The notes below the pieces were generated by a model. The model was not told the origin of the DNA. It saw only the letters and a list, made by a program, of their open reading frames with translations, and did no database searches. A stretch of 35,320 bases of DNA from IMG/VR virus record IMGVR_UViG_2606217174_000009; one strand, 5' to 3'. The stretch is from a virus (taxonomy: Duplodnaviria; Heunggongvirae; Uroviricota; Caudoviricetes). Below, in pieces: positions 4,539-13,757 of this stretch. The position numbers were made by a program, and so were the translations under genes. Positions within the stretch are counted from its first letter, which is position 1. Each line of letters opens with the position of its first letter.

Positions 4539-5138
4539 TATCGCGTCCTCAACAATGAATTTTGTGATGCGGTGCCTGGTGCCTCCAGGTGACGTTAACC
4601 AGTTAACAATTAACGCCGGATACAGAGAATCCACCCATAACACTGTTTTTGGTTTTAACTGTTCCGCGTGCGCTCAGCCGCATTCACCACATCACAAAAT
4701 TCACTTTAAAAAGGGCGGCAGAGCAGTCACGGAGTAAAACTGATACCGCCAAACGTCACCAGAAAATTGATAACAGAGGGCGTTACAGCGGGGTTGTCAC
4801 TTAAGCGTATGGTCAACCTGACAACCCGGTGTCCTCAACGGGGGAAGGAATACCCCCGCCATACTTACCGCCGCGCCATTTCGCGGATTGCCACAACCGG
4901 AAGCGCACGGTCGACGAAAATTTAACGACAGGCTATCTATGAACCAGCTACCTCGCCGTGCGCTTTCGCGTTATGGTCTGACTTTTCAGGGAAATATCCT
5001 TTCAGTAAACTGTCAATGCCGGATGCTCACCCGTGTCCGGCGCACGCACTCCACCTCACCCGTGGAGAACTCCTTAATTACTAACCTTAGCTTTGTTGAT
5101 TAGCTACTAACGCGGGTATGTAATCATTCTGGCAATGC

Positions 5139-5911: not shown

Positions 5912-6628
5912 TCAGTCTAAGTATTGATGTATTTGTGAAACTTTACCTTTAATGGTGTAACCACCATTCAGTTCGATGGGTTTGTAAAGCGGATTCAGTG
6001 ACAACAGATAGATGTTTGGTCCGTCAATCGCAACTTTTTTTAGTGTTACGTTTGGCGTTCCTTCCAATTGGATTAAGATTATTTTTCCCACCAGTTCTCT
6101 AATGTTACTTGAGCATGGTGTGATCAGCACGGTAGAACCGTCGGGGATGGTTGGGAGGCCGTTAGAGTTTGTCATCGCATCTCCCTCAACATGCAATAAA
6201 AAAGAGTTTTCAGCGGTTTTTGTCATGACATCAACCCAATTCTTAATGCCAGGAATCTCGGTTACTGGACAACTCATATCCCAATAACCAGCCTGTTCCC
6301 ACGTTAAAACGGGCAACCGGGCGATGTTGTCACTAATGTAAGGATACTGATTCAGACGCAGATCATCGGTTTTATCGTGACCGTCCTTTCCATAAAGAAT
6401 CCATTCAGGAGATTTGGAAAGCAATTTTGACAGTAGATGCAAATTCTCACCGTCAGGTTTTGAAGAGCCATTTTCCCATTTTGTTACGGATACACGAGAT
6501 ATGCCGATTGCTTTCGCAACCTGCTGTTGGGTTAATCCAACGTCTTTTCGACGATTCCGAATACGTTCGCTGATAGTGTTTTTCATGTAACCAATGTTAC
6601 TACCAAGTGATGTTGCTATGGTTGACAT
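5912..6628 (-). CDS. CI-like prophage repressor (N-terminal HTH, C-terminal S24 LexA-like peptidase domain)
   Basis: HTH segment GLTQQQVAKAIGISRVSVTKWENG; C-terminal S24-like region; divergent from a cro-like gene; start set at ATG 6628 (MST..., possibly leaderless), alternative ATG at 6586; the ORF-track start at 6685 is TTG. Confidence 0.85.
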   Translation of the reverse strand: MSTIATSLGSNIGYMKNTISERIRNRRKDVGLTQQQVAKAIGISRVSVTKWENGSSKPDGENLHLLSKLLSKSPEWILYGKDGHDKTDDLRLNQYPYISDNIARLPVLTWEQAGYWDMSCPVTEIPGIKNWVDVMTKTAENSFLLHVEGDAMTNSNGLPTIPDGSTVLITPCSSNIRELVGKIILIQLEGTPNVTLKKVAIDGPNIYLLSLNPLYKPIELNGGYTIKGKVSQIHQYLD

Positions 6629-6648
6629 TCCTATGTAACTATTGTTAC
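6587..6648. promoter_or_regulatory. Candidate operator region: two palindromes GTAAC-N4-GTTAC plus a TTGACA -35 hexamer
   Basis: GTAACCAATGTTAC at 6587-6600 and GTAACTATTGTTAC at 6635-6648; TTGACA at 6622-6627 on the plus strand; lies between divergent repressor and cro-like genes. Confidence 0.5.
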
Positions 6649-6677
6649 CCTCCTGCTCGAAATAACAGGAGAGTTTT

Positions 6678-6893
6678 ATGTTCAAAGATGATGTTCTGCG
6701 CTATTTCAAAAAAAAGCGACTAGTAGCTGAGGCTCTTGGAATTTCACATGTGGCTGTTGTGCGGTGGAAAGCAGTTATTCCCAAACTTCGCGCAATGGAA
6801 CTGGATGAAATTACTAACGGTGAATTGAAATACAACCCAGAACTTTACAAGAAGCAGGATAGCACCTCGAACGAAGGAAAGAATGATTCATGA
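6678..6893 (+). CDS. Cro-like HTH regulator
   Basis: 71 aa; HTH segment RLVAEALGISHVAVVRW; AGGAGAG SD; divergent from the repressor. Confidence 0.75.
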   Translation: MFKDDVLRYFKKKRLVAEALGISHVAVVRWKAVIPKLRAMELDEITNGELKYNPELYKKQDSTSNEGKNDS

Positions 6894-7315
6894 AAATCAA
6901 GCATGAACACATCCGCATGGCGATGAATGCCTGGGCGCATCCGGACGGTGAAAAAGTTCCGGCAGCTGAAATAACCAGGGCTTATTTTGAACTGGGTATG
7001 ACGTTCCCGGAACTGTATGACGACAGCCATCCGGAAGCCCTGGCTCGCAATACCCAGAAAATTTTCCGCTGGGTGGAGAAAGACACCCCTGATGCAGTTG
7101 AAAAAATTCAGGCGTTGTTACCAGCGATCGAAAAGGCAATGCCACCTTTGCTGGTGGCCAGAATGCGCAGCCACAGTTCAGCTTATTTTCGGGAGCTGGT
7201 GGAGACGCGGGAGCGACTGGTGAGAGACGCTGATGATTTTGTCGCAGTGGCAATCGCCGGTTTCAATCAGATGAACCGTGGTGGCCCGGCAGGAAATGCT
7301 GTGGCAGTGCATTGA
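6890..7315 (+). CDS. YdaT-like / CII-like early regulator
   Basis: 141-aa ORF overlapping the cro-like stop (ATGA); position and size match a lambdoid cII analogue; family assignment from memory only. Confidence 0.5.
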   Translation: MKIKHEHIRMAMNAWAHPDGEKVPAAEITRAYFELGMTFPELYDDSHPEALARNTQKIFRWVEKDTPDAVEKIQALLPAIEKAMPPLLVARMRSHSSAYFRELVETRERLVRDADDFVAVAIAGFNQMNRGGPAGNAVAVH

Positions 7316-7386
7316 GTGATAATAGCCATATCGAATCGCTTCCGGCAACTCGTGAGTAAAAAGATTCGGTATCAGAAGAGGTGAGT

Positions 7387-8457
7387 ATGGCTAACGCCTG
7401 GCTCAGATTATGGCATGACATGCCAAATGACCCTAAGTGGCGAACAATTGCCAGGGTGTCAGGGCAGCCAATTGCAACAGTGATGGCAGTGTATATCCAC
7501 CTCCTGGTGAGCGCGTCACGAAATGTCACGCGAGGTCACATTGATGTCACGACAGAAGATTTGGCAAGTGCGCTCGACGTGACAGAAGAGGTAATTGATT
7601 CAATTTTGCAGACGATGCAGGGGCGGGGACTTGATGGTGATTTAATCACTGGATGGGAAAAACGCCAGGTGCTGAAAGAGGACAACGGCAATATTTCGCA
7701 AACCGCAAAATCTCCTGCAGAGCGCAAGAGGGCGCAGCGAGAGAGGGAAAGAAAGCGGGAACAAAATGGCGATTGTCACGGCGCGTCACGAAATGTCACG
7801 CACATGTCACGACGAGTCACGACAGATAAAGATACAGATAAAGATACAGATCAAGAAGATCAAAACACTATGGTCCATGGCGTAAAAAACGCCACGAACC
7901 AGGCAGGGGATGTTCAGACCGTCAATCCTGGTCAGCCAGCAGGCACGACACCGGAAGCCGATTCAGCGTATGCGCTGAAAGCCGATTCGGGCGCTGTGCA
8001 GCAGGTGATGACCGCAAGGCCGGAGCAATCACACCAACTGCGGCATCCCGAAGCCGATTCCGCCATTCAGCGGGAAGCCGATCGGGTAGTCCCGGAAAAC
8101 ACCGGGCAGTCTGTGGGACGAGTGGATTATCCGGATGTGTTCGAACAGATCTGGCGGGAGTACCCGTTGCGTGCCGGGGCAAACCCGAAGAAATCCGCTT
8201 TCAGTGCCTGGAAGGCCAGATTACGCGAGGGGGTGCCACCAGAGGCCATGCTGGATGGCGTGAGGCGTTACGCAAGATACCTAGCGGTTACCGGGAAAAC
8301 GGGAACGGAATTTGTTCAGCGAGCGACGACGTTTTTTGGACCGGACCGGAATTTTGAAAACCCCTGGTTGCTCCCGGTAAACGGCACGAACAACCAGCGT
8401 TGTGTGAATCATATTTCTGAACCGGATACCGAAATTCCGCCGGGCTTCAGGGGGTAA
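7387..8457 (+). CDS. Putative replication initiator / replisome organiser carrying internal iterons
   Basis: ATG at 7387 with GAGGTGA SD (ORF-track start 7381 is GTG); lambdoid O-gene position; contains two iteron clusters; highly charged low-complexity middle. Confidence 0.55.
   Translation: MANAWLRLWHDMPNDPKWRTIARVSGQPIATVMAVYIHLLVSASRNVTRGHIDVTTEDLASALDVTEEVIDSILQTMQGRGLDGDLITGWEKRQVLKEDNGNISQTAKSPAERKRAQRERERKREQNGDCHGASRNVTHMSRRVTTDKDTDKDTDQEDQNTMVHGVKNATNQAGDVQTVNPGQPAGTTPEADSAYALKADSGAVQQVMTARPEQSHQLRHPEADSAIQREADRVVPENTGQSVGRVDYPDVFEQIWREYPLRAGANPKKSAFSAWKARLREGVPPEAMLDGVRRYARYLAVTGKTGTEFVQRATTFFGPDRNFENPWLLPVNGTNNQRCVNHISEPDTEIPPGFRG
7511..7551. repeat. Iteron cluster 1: four GTCACG/GTCACA repeats at about 10-bp spacing
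   Basis: Hexamers at 7515, 7525, 7535, 7546; the 21-bp string GCGCGTCACGAAATGTCACGC recurs at 7781-7801. Confidence 0.55.
7771..7853. repeat. Iteron cluster 2: five GTCACG repeats at 10-11-bp spacing, followed by an AT-rich 12-bp tandem repeat
   Basis: GTCACG at 7775, 7785, 7795, 7806, 7816; then CAGATAAAGATA x2 at 7823-7846. Confidence 0.55.
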
Positions 8458-8497: not shown

Positions 8498-8920
8498 GTG
8501 GCAAAAGTATTTACACAAGAAGAGCGAGAAAAAATTAAAGGGCAGGTTGTTGAACTCGTACGCCAGAGTGGGCGTGAGACGTTACGACAACTGGAAGTCA
8601 AGACAGGTGCGACAAGATATCTGATGAGCGTTCTCGCGAGAGAGCTGGTTGCCAGCGGTGATGTATACAATTCTGGTTACGGGTTATTCCCGTCTGAACA
8701 GGCGCGTAAGGACTGGCAAAATGCCCGTAAAAAGCTCTCAAGGGCAAAGCTGAAGAAACCATCTGCGGTTGATCCGGACCTTATCTGGTCATTACCTGAT
8801 GGAGAAATACGTCGTTACGACAGGCATCATAATATAATTTGTACTGAGTGTCGTAAAAGCGAAGTTATGCAGCGCATATTGTCGTTTTATCAGTGGAATG
8901 TTCGGTATTTATTAAAGTGA
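8498..8920 (+). CDS. Hypothetical protein (140 aa)
   Basis: GTG start preceded by AGGAGG; follows the replication gene; no recognisable domain. Confidence 0.5.
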   Translation: MAKVFTQEEREKIKGQVVELVRQSGRETLRQLEVKTGATRYLMSVLARELVASGDVYNSGYGLFPSEQARKDWQNARKKLSRAKLKKPSAVDPDLIWSLPDGEIRRYDRHHNIICTECRKSEVMQRILSFYQWNVRYLLK

Positions 8921-9216
8921 CGAAATTAAAATGCATTAGTTAAGATGTGAATTGACATTTTGTGGCACAGGATAGAGCTATCGTGGTTGTCCGCTTTGTG
9001 CCAGAAGCGGAAGTTAGAAATTATCTGCCAACCGATAAGATGGCTGCCTAAGTCGTAGCGATTCAGCACTGTTTTAGCGGCGCTCGATTGCAAAGTCGTG
9101 CTTTGCTGACTTGCGATTGTGCTCTTTACGAGCAAAGCTTTCAGGTATAGTAAGTGCTAACTGTAGTGTAAAATTATAGGGATAGATGAAGAAAACAACG
9201 AGGCTTTAGCTAATCT

Positions 9217-9238
9217 TTGCAGTTGTGTCTGCTATAAT
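9217..9238 (+). promoter_or_regulatory. Candidate extended -10 promoter (TGCTATAAT) for the KAP cassette
   Basis: TGnTATAAT at 9230-9238 in an AT-rich intergenic region about 80 bp upstream of the 9320 start. Confidence 0.4.
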
Positions 9239-9319
9239 AAGGCGAAATTTTATCTGCATGATTTTGTTTGATTAACTCCGAAAGCCAGCTCTCTCGGTGA
9301 AGATTGGGAAGGGATATCA

Positions 9320-12300
9320 ATGAGTGATGATAGCTATAAATTTCAAAAGTTAACGCCGTTCAGCGATGTTGAGCTGGGTGTATATAAAAATGCGATAGAT
9401 TTTGTTTTTGCCAATAACGATCTAAAAAATGTTGCGATATCAGGGCAATATAGCGCAGGAAAAAGTAGTCTTATCGAATCCTATAAGAAAAGTCATTCAA
9501 ATATAAAGTTTGTTCATATCTCACTTGCTCATTTCAGATCGATTGAGGAAGCTGAAACTAATGAACCAAGTAAAGATATAAATGAAACCGCGTTAGAAGG
9601 TAAAGTTCTTAACCAGTTAATTCACCAAATTAATGCTGATGATATTCCCCAGACACATTTTAAAGTAAAGAAAAAAATAAAAACTAACAACATTGTGATA
9701 AACACCATCTTTACGGTGTTATTTATCGCTATGATACTACATATCACGCTATTTAATAAGTGGGAAAAGTTTGTTTCACTTTTATCTGAAGGTAATATAA
9801 AGACACTACTTACATTATCAACTAAATACGATACGCTTTTAATTAGTGGGTTTATATGTACTATCCTATCTTGTATTTTCATTTACAAGTTAATAAAAAC
9901 TCAAAAGAATCGTAATGTTCTTAAGAAAATAAATTTACAGGGTAATGAAATAGAGATTTTTGAAGAAAGTAACGAGTCTTATTTCGATAGATATTTAAAT
10001 GAAGTATTGTACCTTTTCGAGAACGTTGATGCTGATGCCATTGTTTTTGAAGACATGGACCGTTTTAATAGTAATAACATCTTTGAACGTCTTCATGAGG
10101 TTAACAGACTGGTTAATATTCAACGGGACACAGCAGGGCACAAGAAATCGACGTTACGTTTTATTTACTTGCTTCGTGATGATATCTTCATTTCGAAGGA
10201 TAGAACCAAATTCTTTGATTATATCATTCCAGTTATTCCTGTTGTTGATAGTTCTAACTCTTACGATCAGTTTATCACACATTTTGATGGTGGTGGTATT
10301 CTCAAGTTGTTCAATGAAAGATTTCTACAAGGGATGTCTTTATATATTGATGATATGAGAATATTGAAGAATATTTATAACGAATTTCAAATTTATTATA
10401 ACAAATTAAACACGACAGAACTTGACTGTAATAAAATGTTGGCCATTATTGCCTATAAGAATATTTTCCCAAGAGATTTTAGTGAGTTGCAACTTAATCA
10501 AGGTATGGTTTATACCATATTTAGTGAAAAAGACAACCTTATTATTGAAGAAATAAAGAAAATAGAAAAAGATATTAGAGATAGAAAAAAAGAGATTGAG
10601 GCAATCAATGATGAAATACTCAACTCTAGTCAGGAGGTTGATGCTATATACGATAAGGAATTATCTAGATATAATAATCATCCTCACTATAATCAGGCTG
10701 AGAAAGCTGATATAGCAAAGAGAAGGGCGGCTAGAAAAGAAAGTGTTGAAAATAAATTTAATGGTAAAATAGAAGAAATTAATGAGCTTATATCAAGATC
10801 AAGAGAAAGTTTGGTTGATTCTAGAAACAAAAGACTTAAAGAAGTAATAACTAGAGAAAACATTGATGAAATATTTAAACTCACCTATACCAATGAAATT
10901 GGAGAGGAAAGAGACTTTAATGAAATAAAAAGCAGTGAGTATTTTGACTTGCTTAAATACCTTATTCGTGATGGTTATATTGATGAAACCTATACCGACT
11001 ATATGACCTATTTTTATGAAAATAGCCTGAGTCGAATTGATAAGATGTTTTTACGCAGCATTACCGATCAAAAAGGCAAAGAGTTCACTTATCAACTCAA
11101 GAACCCCAAACTGGTCGTTGCCCGCCTTCGAGAAGTGGATTTTGAACAGGAAGAGGCGCTTAATTTTGATTTATTAGCTTATCTGCTTCAAACGCCAGCC
11201 CAGGTAAACTTAATAAAACGTTTATTCAAACAACTAAGAAAAGATAGAAGAGTTGAGTTTATTCGTGGTTACTTTGAAACTGAGAGGGCTCAGCCTGTCT
11301 TCATTAATCGATTAAATACACAGTGGCCTGAGTTTTTTTCTTATGCGCTGACAGAGAGTGAATTTTCTGCTGATTGGGTTAAACTCTACTCTATAGGCAC
11401 GTTTTATTATTCTGCCAATGACGCCATCGAGGCCATTAATATTGATGATTGTCTGACTGATTACATCTCTGATTCGGCAGGTTATTTAGCAATATCAGAA
11501 CCGAAGGTTGACAAATTAATTAGTGGTTTTAAGTTGCTTAACGTCTCTTTTGTCAGTATTAAATTTGAAAACGCAAATAAAGTACTCTTTGATGCGGTTT
11601 ACCAGCATTCACTTTATGATATTAATTTTTCCAACCTGACCTTAATGCTGAGTAAGGTTTACACGCTTAATAGTGAAGATGATATTCGCCATAAGAACTA
11701 TACACTAGTGATGTCACAACCTGATTCTCCCTTGGCTAGTTATGTTAATAACCATATTAGGGACTATCTGGATATGGTTTTATCTAGTTGTGATGGTTCA
11801 ATCGTGGATGATGAATCCATTGTTTTATCCGTTCTTAATAATGAGGGAATATCTGATGAACAAAAAGGCCAGTATATAAACGCTTTGCAAACTTTCGTGA
11901 CATCTCTGAGTGAGGTTGAGAGCGAATCTTTATGGTCATCTTTGTTGGATAAAGATAGAGCAGTGTGCTCTGAGGAAAATATTGTCTCTTATTTTGAACA
12001 TGTTGATGGACTGGATGACTCACTTATCGAATTTATCAATAGAACTGATGTAGACCTGAATTTTCAAAATATTAATATTGATAACGAGCTTAAAGGTAAA
12101 TTATTTAAATCGATTGTTATCTGTAATGATTTATCAAATGATAAATATGAAAAATTAATTTGCTCACTAAATATTATTTGTAAAACATCCTTTAGCGCTA
12201 GTAATATCGCGAGTGATAAGTTCAAAATATTAGTGGATAAAAATATTATTCGTATGAATGTTGCGCCACTTAATTTCATACGAGATAACTATTCAGAGCA

Positions 12301-12691
12301 ACTTTCCTATTATATTCATAAGAATATCAGGGCATACGTTGAATTAATGACGATTGATAACTTTATTTTGGATGAGGCTATATCAATACTTTCTTGGAAA
12401 GTTGATGATGATTTGAAAGTTAAGCTACTCGAGTTTGTTAAAACTCCGTTGGCTATTTATAGTAAGAATTACTCTCAGGTCGTTAATGACTATATTTTAG
12501 AAAATAATTTTAAACCAGATGAACTTCTAATCTTGACGTCATCTTATAAAACTTGGGGAACCTCTACTCAGTCGCTCATCTTGAGTCGAGCAATACAGGA
12601 TATATCAGCATTGATAGCAAGTCCTAATGATGTTTCTGAACCGTTACTAAAAAAACCTGTTTGTCGCAGAGGGACTGAATATGCAGAATAA
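9320..12691 (+). CDS. KAP-family P-loop NTPase (1123 aa) with transmembrane insert
   Basis: Walker A GQYSAGKS (aa 42-49); two hydrophobic helices (about aa 124-146 and 172-192); Walker B-like IVFEDMDR (aa 241-248); long C-terminal region with a charged coiled-coil-like segment; strongly AT-rich. Confidence 0.8.
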   Translation: MSDDSYKFQKLTPFSDVELGVYKNAIDFVFANNDLKNVAISGQYSAGKSSLIESYKKSHSNIKFVHISLAHFRSIEEAETNEPSKDINETALEGKVLNQLIHQINADDIPQTHFKVKKKIKTNNIVINTIFTVLFIAMILHITLFNKWEKFVSLLSEGNIKTLLTLSTKYDTLLISGFICTILSCIFIYKLIKTQKNRNVLKKINLQGNEIEIFEESNESYFDRYLNEVLYLFENVDADAIVFEDMDRFNSNNIFERLHEVNRLVNIQRDTAGHKKSTLRFIYLLRDDIFISKDRTKFFDYIIPVIPVVDSSNSYDQFITHFDGGGILKLFNERFLQGMSLYIDDMRILKNIYNEFQIYYNKLNTTELDCNKMLAIIAYKNIFPRDFSELQLNQGMVYTIFSEKDNLIIEEIKKIEKDIRDRKKEIEAINDEILNSSQEVDAIYDKELSRYNNHPHYNQAEKADIAKRRAARKESVENKFNGKIEEINELISRSRESLVDSRNKRLKEVITRENIDEIFKLTYTNEIGEERDFNEIKSSEYFDLLKYLIRDGYIDETYTDYMTYFYENSLSRIDKMFLRSITDQKGKEFTYQLKNPKLVVARLREVDFEQEEALNFDLLAYLLQTPAQVNLIKRLFKQLRKDRRVEFIRGYFETERAQPVFINRLNTQWPEFFSYALTESEFSADWVKLYSIGTFYYSANDAIEAINIDDCLTDYISDSAGYLAISEPKVDKLISGFKLLNVSFVSIKFENANKVLFDAVYQHSLYDINFSNLTLMLSKVYTLNSEDDIRHKNYTLVMSQPDSPLASYVNNHIRDYLDMVLSSCDGSIVDDESIVLSVLNNEGISDEQKGQYINALQTFVTSLSEVESESLWSSLLDKDRAVCSEENIVSYFEHVDGLDDSLIEFINRTDVDLNFQNINIDNELKGKLFKSIVICNDLSNDKYEKLICSLNIICKTSFSASNIASDKFKILVDKNIIRMNVAPLNFIRDNYSEQLSYYIHKNIRAYVELMTIDNFILDEAISILSWKVDDDLKVKLLEFVKTPLAIYSKNYSQVVNDYILENNFKPDELLILTSSYKTWGTSTQSLILSRAIQDISALIASPNDVSEPLLKKPVCRRGTEYAE

Positions 12692-13003: not shown

Positions 13004-13601
13004 CGCTGAAACTTACGCAGATAATCTGACTTTTTCCCAGTTGACGAGTACACCTAGGTGTTCGTGAAGCCCTCAGTGTGTTGGGACAGATGCGAGCGTC
13101 CGCTCTTCGCTCAAAGCGGCCTAGAAGGTTAGCTTGCGTCGGACTTGGCGTATTTAAAGAAGTGCTGGTGGTGACTGGTTGTTGTGTTCCATTTCTACAG
13201 AACAAAATCACAGAAACTATACCCAATAGTTGTATTGAATCACTGACGAGACAGCCTCATATTTATCAGGACTGGTGTACGTCCAATACAGGAGGTTGTG
13301 GTGCTGGTTCTCAAATGTGCGCTGGCTATTGCTGCTGTAATGGCAATTTATTGCCTTGCTGTTGTTCTTATGGATCGCCTTTCTGACTGATTTCATATTG
13401 GCGAGGTGACGGGAGTTAAGTAGAATGGCTGCGGGTGCTTGAGGCTATCTGTCTCAGGCATGAACACCAACGGCAGATAGAGAAAAGCCCCAGTTAACAT
13501 TACGCGTCCTGCAAGACGCTTAACATTAATCTGAGGCTCAATCTATGAACGGCAAATCTAGGTTAGCCTCTTACGTGCCGAAAGGCAAGGAGAAGCAGGC
13601 T

Positions 13602-13757
13602 ATGAAGCAGCAAAAGGCGATGTTAATCGCCCTGATCGTCATCTGTTTAACCGTCATAGTGACGGCACTGGTAACGAGGAAAGACCTCTGCGAGGTACGA
13701 ATCCGAACCGGCCAGACGGAGGTCGCTGTCTTCACAGTCTACGAACCTGAGGAGTAA
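13602..13757 (+). CDS. hok: Hok/Gef-family type I toxin
   Basis: 51 aa MKQQKAMLIALIVICLTVIVTALVTRKDLCEVRIRTGQTEVAVFTVYEPEE matches the Hok/Gef family; AAGGAG SD; in-frame upstream ATG at 13545 gives a 70-aa mok-like extension. Confidence 0.85.
   Translation: MKQQKAMLIALIVICLTVIVTALVTRKDLCEVRIRTGQTEVAVFTVYEPEE

What the first reader, a model, noticed from the sequence alone, without database searches (positions are those of the whole stretch)
7511..7853. Two iteron arrays inside the replication initiator gene mark a likely origin
Seen: nine GTCACG-type hexamers in two clusters (7515-7551 and 7775-7821) spaced at 10-11 bp, a 21-bp exact direct repeat shared between clusters, and an adjacent AT-rich 12-bp tandem repeat (7823-7846). 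Established: lambdoid phages place ori iterons next to an AT-rich unwinding element inside the O gene. Inference: this is the prophage origin and the encoded protein binds these repeats.
Basis: partly seen in the sequence, partly recalled or inferred. Interest (0 to 1): 0.5.

Follow-up and report, generated by a model that had tools for sequence, protein, structure and literature searches.

The report
Prophage replication origin inside initiator gene
The repeats are real and are very probably the replication origin of a common E. coli prophage type, built like the phage lambda origin but belonging to a different, untested initiator family; this is a solid but not surprising result.

Summary
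Nine GTCAC(G/A) hexamers lie on the + strand in two arrays (7515-7551 and 7775-7821) at 10-11 bp spacing. There is a 21-bp exact repeat (7511-7531 = 7781-7801) and an adjacent A-rich 12-bp tandem repeat (7822-7856).

They lie in gene 7387-8457, a "phage replisome organizer". This gene has a winged-helix N-domain, a disordered linker and a small helical C-domain. It is not a lambda O homologue.

I compared 79 relatives from many bacterial phyla (30-99% identity):
- 71 have a phased array in the linker.
- 52 have a second array inside the N-domain coding part.
- The hexamer core changes by clade (GTCACG, GTAACG, GTGACG, GCAACG, CGAACG), but the two arrays of one gene share it.
- The gene's GC minimum follows the linker array in 58 of 71.
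- Synonymous bases inside the hexamers are 97.5% conserved, against 52.5% elsewhere.

The N-domain, both arrays and the AT-rich tract travel together, while the C-domain and the neighbouring genes are swapped.

Best reading: an iteron-type origin, with the linker array plus AT-rich tract as the core and the upstream array as an accessory. Protein binding and origin activity are inferred, not shown. Novelty: a new member of a known kind.

The parts
7387..8457 (+). Replication initiator gene (356 aa, 'phage replisome organizer'). Start ATG at 7387, preceded by AGAGGTGA.
   Evidence: phrog_3729 over the full length, E 8e-254. NCBI names relatives 'phage replisome organizer'. About 98% identical in phages Tritos, Evi, 204576 and vB_EcoS-640R1.
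7387..7665 (+). Coding region of the winged-helix N-domain (aa 1-93). Helices 4-14, 16-25 and 29-45, a loop at 46-55, helices 56-63 and 67-77, and a beta wing at 78-88.
7515..7551 (+). Array A: four hexamers (GTCACG 7515, 7525, 7546; GTCACA 7535) spaced 10,10,11 bp. It encodes the loop ASRNVTRGHIDVT (aa 43-55) just before the helix-turn-helix.
   Evidence: A homologous array is present in 52 of 79 relatives. Third-codon bases inside the hexamers are 0.975 conserved against 0.525 outside.
7578..7583 (-). Single inverted GTCACG copy, within the codons for LDVT (aa 63-66).
   Evidence: It sits at the same offset (192 nt, or 180 nt in genes whose match starts four codons later, plus two at 193) in 19 of 24 GTCACG-group relatives. 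Synonymous constraint there is only moderate, so its status is uncertain.
7775..7821 (+). Array B: five GTCACG hexamers spaced 10,10,11,10 bp, in the linker between the domains (aa 130-145). This is the likely core set of initiator binding sites.
   Evidence: A phased array lies at this place in 71 of 79 relatives, against 5 of 79 for the rest of the gene.
7781..7801 (+). 21-bp exact copy of 7511-7531 (two iteron units, 7 codons). Array B is 21 bp longer here than in relatives that carry three copies (e.g. L088, L098).
   Evidence: Array A of the E. albertii relative (L087) is also expanded by 21 bp, so arrays appear to grow in frame-preserving two-unit steps (inference).
7822..7870 (+). A-rich, AT-rich tract. 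It holds ACAGATAAAGAT 2.9 times (7822-7856) and two GATC sites (7849, 7858), and encodes DKDTDKDTDQEDQ. This is the candidate DNA-unwinding element.
   Evidence: GC 0.33-0.35 and AT skew +0.46 to +0.63. In 58 of 71 relatives the gene-wide GC minimum starts within -10 to +40 nt of the end of array B. Mean GC there is 0.36, against 0.57 for the gene. See also the alignment.
7871..7901 (.). Imperfect hairpin (TGGTCCATGGCGT-AAAAA-ACGCCACGAACCA) directly after the AT-rich tract.
   Evidence: DNA dG -8.7. Not consistently present in relatives: z-scores range from +0.4 to -4.5. Probably not a family feature.
8134..8334 (+). Core of the small helical C-domain (aa 250-316).
8380..8454 (+). C-terminal tail NGTNNQRCVNHISEPDTEIPPGFRG (aa 332-356), which resembles the last 25 residues of host DnaT. 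Possibly a host-contact peptide.
   Evidence: NF002770 DnaT positions 155-179, E 7e-4. PDB 6aep, 2ru8 and 9zbt. Predicted disordered.

Best explanation
The region is the vegetative replication origin of this lambdoid prophage, embedded in the gene of its own initiator.

Proposed mechanism:
1. The initiator's winged-helix N-domain binds the GTCACG hexamers. Because these repeat every 10-11 bp, all sites lie on one face of the helix.
2. An oligomer assembled on array B (7775-7821) destabilises the adjoining A-rich tract (7822-7870).
3. The C-domain, with its DnaT-like tail, brings in the host helicase machinery. No phage helicase or loader gene is present in this module.
4. Array A (7515-7551) lies about 230 bp upstream, inside the coding sequence of the DNA-binding domain. 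It is an accessory set of the same sites, most plausibly building a larger or looped nucleoprotein complex, or serving copy or autoregulatory control.

What is shown here: the repeats, their phasing, their conservation, the concerted change of core in both arrays, the synonymous-site constraint, the AT-rich tract, the winged-helix fold, and the modular inheritance.

What is inferred: that the N-domain is the binding protein, that unwinding starts in the A-rich tract, how the helicase is recruited, and the role of array A.
For: (1) Non-random, phased repeats in the window.

(2) Family survey of 79 full-length relatives at 30-99% N-domain identity. A linker array of at least 3 phased copies is present in 71, and an N-domain array in 52. 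The same test on the rest of the gene succeeds in only 5.

(3) The core differs between clades (GTCACG, GTAACG, GTGACG, GCAACG, CGAACG; the general form is G-N-N-A-C-G-C). Arrays A and B of one gene nevertheless share the core. An automatic test scored 39 of 49 as the same; by my reading most of the 10 'different' calls are register shifts, giving roughly 45 of 49.

(4) Different cores occur in phages of the same host genus: in Pseudomonas, GTCACG in L093, L110 and L112 against CGAACG in L118; in Pantoea and Serratia likewise.

(5) The hexamers fall in all three reading frames (SR, VT, GH). Third-codon bases inside them are 0.975 conserved against 0.525 at other conserved codons (Mann-Whitney p = 6e-6; 24 loci, pairwise amino-acid identity 55-98%). 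The constraint is therefore on the nucleic acid.

(6) The 40 nt after array B average GC 0.36, against 0.57 for the gene. The gene-wide GC minimum lies there in 58 of 71 relatives.

(7) The N-domain, both arrays and the AT-rich tract are inherited as a block while everything else changes. Pseudomonas phage phita81A has the same nine-hexamer layout with an unrelated C-domain and a primase-helicase next door. Of 61 relatives, 17 carry a DnaT-type C-domain instead. Shigella phage 75/02 Stx has the same C-half with another N-domain and no GTCACG array.

(8) The N-domain is a confident winged helix close to the DnaD N-terminal domain.

(9) The layout matches the experimentally defined lambdoid origin, with iterons plus an AT-rich tract in the middle of the initiator gene (PMC7466680).

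(10) The module occurs in sequenced phage genome records (Tritos, Evi and others) and in 1647 of 5426 complete E. coli genomes.
Against: - There is no experimental evidence for binding or for origin activity in any family member. No paper was found and no model phage carries this N-domain.
- No small plasmid uses this module as its only replicon, so there is no natural replication assay.
- No residue of the predicted recognition helix tracks the hexamer core, so the protein-DNA specificity link is unproven.
- Because the arrays lie inside the gene, their co-inheritance with the N-domain is partly physical linkage.
- All copies are on the sense strand, so an RNA-level role is not formally excluded.
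- No DnaA-box or IHF consensus was found in 7300-8000.
Confidence: 0.78

Rival explanations
1. Only array B plus the AT-rich tract is the origin. Array A is a separate control element bound by the same protein, for example an autoregulatory roadblock inside its own gene, or a handcuffing or titration site.
For: Array A is absent from 27 of 79 relatives that still have array B and the AT-rich tract. No AT-rich tract lies next to array A. In lambda, the two iterons nearest the AT-rich tract suffice in vitro (PMC7466680).
Against: Where present, array A is as strongly constrained as array B. It keeps the same core and the same strand. In the GTCACG group the distance between arrays falls in steps of about 10 bp (209, 219, 229, 239). 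That stepping could arise simply from gain or loss of units. This reading overlaps with the best explanation rather than excluding it.
Confidence: 0.3
2. The hexamers are binding sites for a different protein (a phage regulator such as the CII-like or DUF977/Ren-like neighbour, or a host factor) and serve transcription control or exclusion rather than replication.
For: Binding by the initiator has not been shown. No recognition-helix residue tracks the core.
Against: The neighbouring genes differ completely between E. coli, Pseudomonas and Ralstonia members that keep the arrays. Different cores occur within one host genus. The only protein segment shared by all array-bearing loci is the N-domain. 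The conserved adjoining AT-rich tract fits an origin.
Confidence: 0.08
3. The motif acts in the mRNA as a repeated GUCACG element, for translation or stability control.
For: All copies of both arrays are on the sense strand. The constraint on synonymous sites would also fit an RNA element.
Against: A 10-11 nt period equals the helical repeat of duplex DNA and has no obvious meaning in RNA. No Rfam family matches the gene. The adjoining AT-rich tract and the analogy with defined origins favour DNA.
Confidence: 0.04
4. The repeats are a by-product of a repeated peptide or of replication slippage and have no function at the nucleic-acid level.
For: The 21-bp exact repeat encodes ASRNVT twice. The AT-rich tract encodes a low-complexity DKDTD linker.
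Against: The hexamers occupy all three reading frames. The period is not a multiple of 3. Synonymous sites are nearly invariant across genera. Both arrays switch core together between clades.
Confidence: 0.02

Closest known systems
Phage lambda and Stx-phage origin (ori-lambda inside gene O)
   Same: The origin lies in the middle of the initiator gene, in the segment between the DNA-binding N-domain and the partner-binding C-domain. Direct arrays of initiator sites are followed on one side by an AT-rich tract (PMC7466680). N-domain plus origin and C-domain behave as exchangeable modules.
   Different: There is no sequence relationship to lambda O: no Pfam Phage_rep_O hit. The sites have a 6-bp core repeated every 10-11 bp, not 19-bp inverted-repeat iterons. 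There are two arrays about 230 bp apart rather than one. No P-type or DnaC-type loader gene follows the initiator.
Replisome organizers of phages of Gram-positive bacteria (SPP1 G38P with oriL; Pfam Phage_rep_org_N, TIGR01714) and bacterial DnaD
   Different: The profile scores are below the curated cut-offs. The hosts are Proteobacteria and Acidobacteria. The C-domain differs. No helicase-loader or helicase genes follow in this prophage.
Iteron-type plasmid origins and the bipartite ori/crr of satellite phage P4 (from memory, not checked here)
   Same: Phased direct repeats bound by a winged-helix initiator next to an AT-rich unwinding element. In P4, two separated clusters of the same repeat are both used.
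   Different: Plasmid iterons are typically 17-22 bp and lie outside the rep gene. The P4 clusters are kilobases apart, and its initiator is a primase-helicase.

Membership tests
Iteron-type replication origin | Three or more direct repeats of one motif, phased with the DNA helical repeat | tested here: met
   4 + 5 copies at 10-11 bp spacing.
Iteron-type replication origin | Adjacent AT-rich element that can unwind | tested here: met
   GC is 0.33 at 7820-7860. The gene-wide GC minimum follows array B in 58 of 71 relatives. Unwinding itself was not tested.
Iteron-type replication origin | Repeats conserved in relatives and changing together with the initiator lineage | tested here: met
   71 of 79 relatives have the linker array. 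Five core types occur, and the two arrays of one gene share the core. Synonymous-site constraint is strong.
Iteron-type replication origin | Sequence-specific binding by the cognate initiator | not testable with these tools
   Needs EMSA or footprinting.
Iteron-type replication origin | The fragment supports replication when the initiator is supplied | not testable with these tools
   No small natural plasmid with this module was found.
Lambda O / ori-lambda family | Initiator homologous to lambda O (Pfam Phage_rep_O) | tested here: not met
   Pfam scan at E <= 0.01 returns only HTH_Crp_2.
Lambda O / ori-lambda family | 19-bp inverted-repeat iterons | tested here: not met
   The units are 10-11 bp with a non-palindromic 6-bp core.
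Lambda O / ori-lambda family | Origin inside the initiator gene, between the domains | tested here: met
   Array B and the AT-rich tract encode the linker. aa 131-138 are modelled as disordered, and the rest of the linker was not modelled.
Phage replisome organizer, N-terminal region (PF09681 / TIGR01714) | Profile score above the curated cut-off | tested here: not met
   PF09681: 16.9 bits against a cut-off of 23.3. TIGR01714: 16.2 bits against 49.8. The alignments span nearly the whole profile. Only 1 of 61 relatives reaches E <= 0.01.
Phage replisome organizer, N-terminal region (PF09681 / TIGR01714) | DnaD-like winged-helix fold | tested here: met
DnaT (primosomal protein I) | Full-length match to the DnaT model | tested here: not met
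   NF002770 scores 19.3 bits against a cut-off of 201. Only the last 25 residues align. 'Primosomal protein I' in some phage records is therefore a tail-only resemblance.

The most novel reading that the evidence does not exclude
A distinct bipartite origin design used by a whole family of DnaD-like phage initiators. One iteron array is written into the coding sequence of the initiator's own DNA-binding domain and dictates a surface loop there. A second array lies in the linker next to the unwinding element. Two initiator oligomers, one per array of 4-5 sites, would loop the roughly 230 bp between them to open the A-rich tract. In the E. coli version, a DnaT-mimicking C-terminal tail would recruit the host helicase machinery without any phage-encoded loader.
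Probability: 0.2. Interest if true: 0.6.

Novelty: new member of a known kind. Interest (0 to 1): 0.4.

Why it matters
This replication module is present, at 80% coverage or more, in 1647 of 5426 complete E. coli genomes and in prophages of many Proteobacteria. Yet I found no description of its origin, and the databases label the gene inconsistently as O protein, primosomal protein I, replisome organizer or hypothetical.

A defined origin gives three things:
- a handle for typing these prophages;
- a way to predict replication incompatibility between co-resident prophages, from the hexamer core;
- a basis for building origin-plus-Rep vectors.

The hexamer-core variants offer a natural series for studying how a winged-helix initiator changes specificity. 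The dual use of sequence, as an iteron array that also encodes a protein loop, is a clean example of overlapping constraints.

Tried and rejected
- Literature searches for GTCACG iterons and for replisome organizer, iterons and prophage found nothing on this family.
- The Stx-phage 'Eru' papers list Shigella phage 75/02 as type Eru4 but do not discuss origins.
- The plasmid search found only large plasmids or phage-sized circles, so no minimal replicon.
- The second protein search, with the C-domain, returned mostly fragments and frameshifted pieces. The C-domain model is therefore mediocre and its fold matches are weak.
- My 'minus strand' control was meaningless, because a direct repeat is repeated on both strands. 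Only the 'rest of gene' control is used.
- I considered that the loop encoded by array A might itself read the hexamers. I rejected this. Relatives without array A have similar loops but different cores, for example L152 with GTCACG and L154 with GTGACG.
- Helical register between the arrays is not independent evidence. The loci are related, and unit gain or loss moves array ends in 10-bp steps.
- The hairpin after the AT-rich tract is not conserved.
- No DnaA-box or IHF consensus was found, and no Rfam family matches the gene.
- The function of the DnaT tail (residues 154-179) is not defined in the papers I read.

Full report
**1. What is in the sequence**

The region lies in a lambdoid immunity and replication module. 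In order:
- a cI-like repressor (5912-6685, minus strand; HTH_3 plus Peptidase_S24);
- a P22-type Cro (6678-6893);
- a CII/YdaT-like protein (6890-7315);
- a 356-aa protein (7387-8457);
- a DUF977/Ren-like protein (8498-8920).

The 356-aa protein matches phrog_3729 'replication initiation protein' over its whole length. NCBI calls relatives 'phage replisome organizer'.

Inside this gene the + strand carries GTCACG at 7515, 7525, 7546, 7775, 7785, 7795, 7806 and 7816, and GTCACA at 7535. The spacings are 10,10,11 and 10,10,11,10 bp. One inverted copy sits at 7578-7583.

The 21-bp exact repeat is at 7511-7531 and 7781-7801. The copies are 270 bp apart, so they are in the same frame. The tandem repeat ACAGATAAAGAT runs from 7822 to 7856. 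GC falls to 0.33 there, with a strong excess of A on the + strand.

Shuffles of the whole window never reach the observed hexamer count. The local excess is about a hundred-fold.

**2. The repeat is a nucleic-acid feature, not a peptide repeat**

The period of 10-11 bp is not a multiple of three, so the hexamers fall in all three frames: gcG TCA CGa, GTC ACG, gGT CAC Att.

I built a codon alignment of 24 relatives that use GTCACG (pairwise amino-acid identity 55-98%). The third base of codons inside the hexamers is 0.975 conserved. At the other 46 codons whose amino acid is conserved, the figure is 0.525 (Mann-Whitney p = 6e-6). The spacer positions between hexamers vary freely, for example the third bases of R45, R49 and I52 at 0.33-0.42.

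**3. Relatives elsewhere**

The protein is modular.

- Its N-domain (aa 1-138) is 69-70% identical to proteins of Pseudomonas and Aeromonas phages that have unrelated C-terminal halves.
- Its C-terminal half is shared with other lambdoid replication proteins that have unrelated N-domains.

Pseudomonas phage phita81A carries the same motif in the same two places: 4 + 4 copies at equal offsets, plus the inverted copy. This holds despite a different host, a different C-domain and different neighbours. Its next gene is a primase-helicase.

Ralstonia phage Firinga has GCAACG nine times in the same layout.

Shigella phage 75/02 Stx has the window's C-half but another N-domain, and has no GTCACG array.

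A scan of one genome per species gave 80 loci at 30-99% identity. They come from Enterobacterales, Pseudomonadales, Burkholderiales, Xanthomonadales, Sphingomonadales, Rhizobiales, Acidobacteria and others. I analysed 79 full-length genes:
- 71 have at least 3 phased copies of one 5-mer in the linker (offset about 300-480 nt);
- 52 have such an array in the N-domain part (offset about 110-180 nt);
- the rest of the gene passes the same test in only 5.

The core differs by clade: GTCACG, GTAACG, GTGACG, GCAACG or CGAACG. Together these read G-N-N-A-C-G-C. The two arrays of one gene use the same core. My automatic test scored 39 of 49 as the same. By my reading most of the 10 'different' calls are register shifts of one core, which gives about 45 of 49. 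Different cores occur in phages of one host genus.

Directly after the linker array, GC drops from a gene mean of 0.57 to 0.36. In 58 of 71 genes the GC minimum of the whole gene starts within -10 to +40 nt of the end of the array (alignment). This tract encodes a low-complexity acidic and basic linker (DKDKD, DTDTD, EEKREE).

Among 80 near-identical E. coli-type viral contigs, 76 keep the exact nine-copy pattern.

**4. The protein**

An AlphaFold2 model of aa 1-138, built on 61 sequences, has:
- three helices;
- a loop at aa 46-55, which is the part encoded by array A;
- a helix-turn-helix (56-63 and 67-77);
- a beta wing (78-88);
- disorder at aa 96-107 and 131-138, with a lower-confidence helix (110-130) between them.

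PF09681 and TIGR01714 ('phage replisome organizer, N-terminal') align end to end but score below their cut-offs.

The C-domain model is a small helical bundle of moderate confidence. Its only suggestive match is weak, to a DnaD-like protein.

The last 25 residues (…SEPDTEIPPGFRG) match the C-terminal tail of E. coli DnaT. The rest of the protein does not match DnaT. This explains the 'primosomal protein I' label in some phage records.

**5. Interpretation**

The best-supported reading is an iteron-type origin embedded in the initiator gene.

- The near-universal unit is [phased hexamer array] then [A-rich tract], located in the linker. This is the layout shown experimentally for lambdoid origins (PMC7466680).
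- The N-domain, both arrays and the AT-rich tract are inherited as one block while C-domains and neighbouring genes are exchanged.
- Array A is an accessory set of the same sites that arose in part of the family. It is under equally strong constraint where present.

The arrays appear to grow in 21-bp steps, which equal two units and seven codons. The window's array B and the E. albertii array A (L087) each carry such an insertion.

Three things are not shown: that the protein binds, where unwinding starts, and how the helicase is loaded. I found no recognition-helix residue that tracks the core. The loop encoded by array A is a passenger rather than a specificity determinant, because relatives lacking array A have similar loops but different cores.

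**6. Rivals**

- A peptide-repeat origin is contradicted.
- A different binding protein is unlikely, because only the N-domain is common to all array-bearing loci, and because cores differ within a host genus.
- An RNA-level role is not formally excluded, since all copies are on the sense strand. The helical period and the AT-rich tract argue for duplex DNA, and no Rfam family matches.
- Array A could be a control site rather than part of the origin proper. This remains open.

**7. Comparison and novelty**

In function the region resembles ori-lambda and the origins of phage replisome organizers such as SPP1 G38P with oriL (PMC5615212).

It is not a member of the lambda O family. It is a sub-threshold relative of the Gram-positive organizer family.

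I found no publication on the origin of this family, and no model phage carries the N-domain. The module is nevertheless in about 30% of complete E. coli genomes.

I rate it a new member of a known kind. It has a notable variant feature, two arrays with one inside the coding sequence of the DNA-binding domain, and moderate interest.

Noticed in passing
window 7951-8082; L003 1814-1942 and 2659-2720: There is a second repeat family in the same gene. AAGCCGAT occurs four times, at 7955, 7979, 8051 and 8075, within a 36-nt direct repeat. The same motif occurs in Shigella phage 75/02 Stx, which shares only the C-terminal half. There it appears in two different reading frames inside the gene and twice upstream within exact 39-nt repeats (4 found against 0.28 expected). 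It may represent the iterons of the 75/02-type (Eru4) replicon, carried into this chimeric gene.
   Followed up: partly
window 8380-8454: The C-terminal 25 residues mimic the tail of host DnaT. The same tail (60 nt at 98% identity) ends other, unrelated E. coli prophage replication proteins annotated 'replication protein O' (P0169, H119). It therefore looks like a mobile host-contact peptide. Its partner is unknown.
   Followed up: partly
window 8498-12691: No phage helicase or helicase-loader gene follows the initiator. It is followed by a DUF977/Ren-like gene and then an AT-rich 1123-aa YobI-like P-loop NTPase (9320-12691), probably defence cargo. Phage Tritos has a different cargo gene at this place.
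   Followed up: partly
L087 (E. albertii) 1628-1686; L112 (Pseudomonas sp. JAI111) about 1636-1710: Array A is expanded by whole units in some relatives. This inserts extra residues into the loop before the helix-turn-helix: VTTCHGVSLRGH in L087, and a 25-residue insertion in L112. The loop therefore tolerates iteron gain.
   Followed up: partly
window 4713-4764 (-), 13433-13607 (+), 19689-19935 (+), 20043-20240 (+): Rfam matches at gathering score: DicF sRNA, sok antitoxin RNA, three tRNA genes and sRNA STnc100.
   Followed up: no
window 20414-22396 (+) and 29861-31915 (-): Two NanS-like esterase genes (SASA + DUF6645) lie in opposite orientations. A Mom-like gene (27616-28548, minus strand) lies between them. 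This suggests an inversion or a junction of two prophage segments.
   Followed up: no
window 7871-7901: An imperfect hairpin sits directly after the AT-rich tract. It reads as a terminator-like site on the minus strand. It is not conserved across the family.
   Followed up: yes
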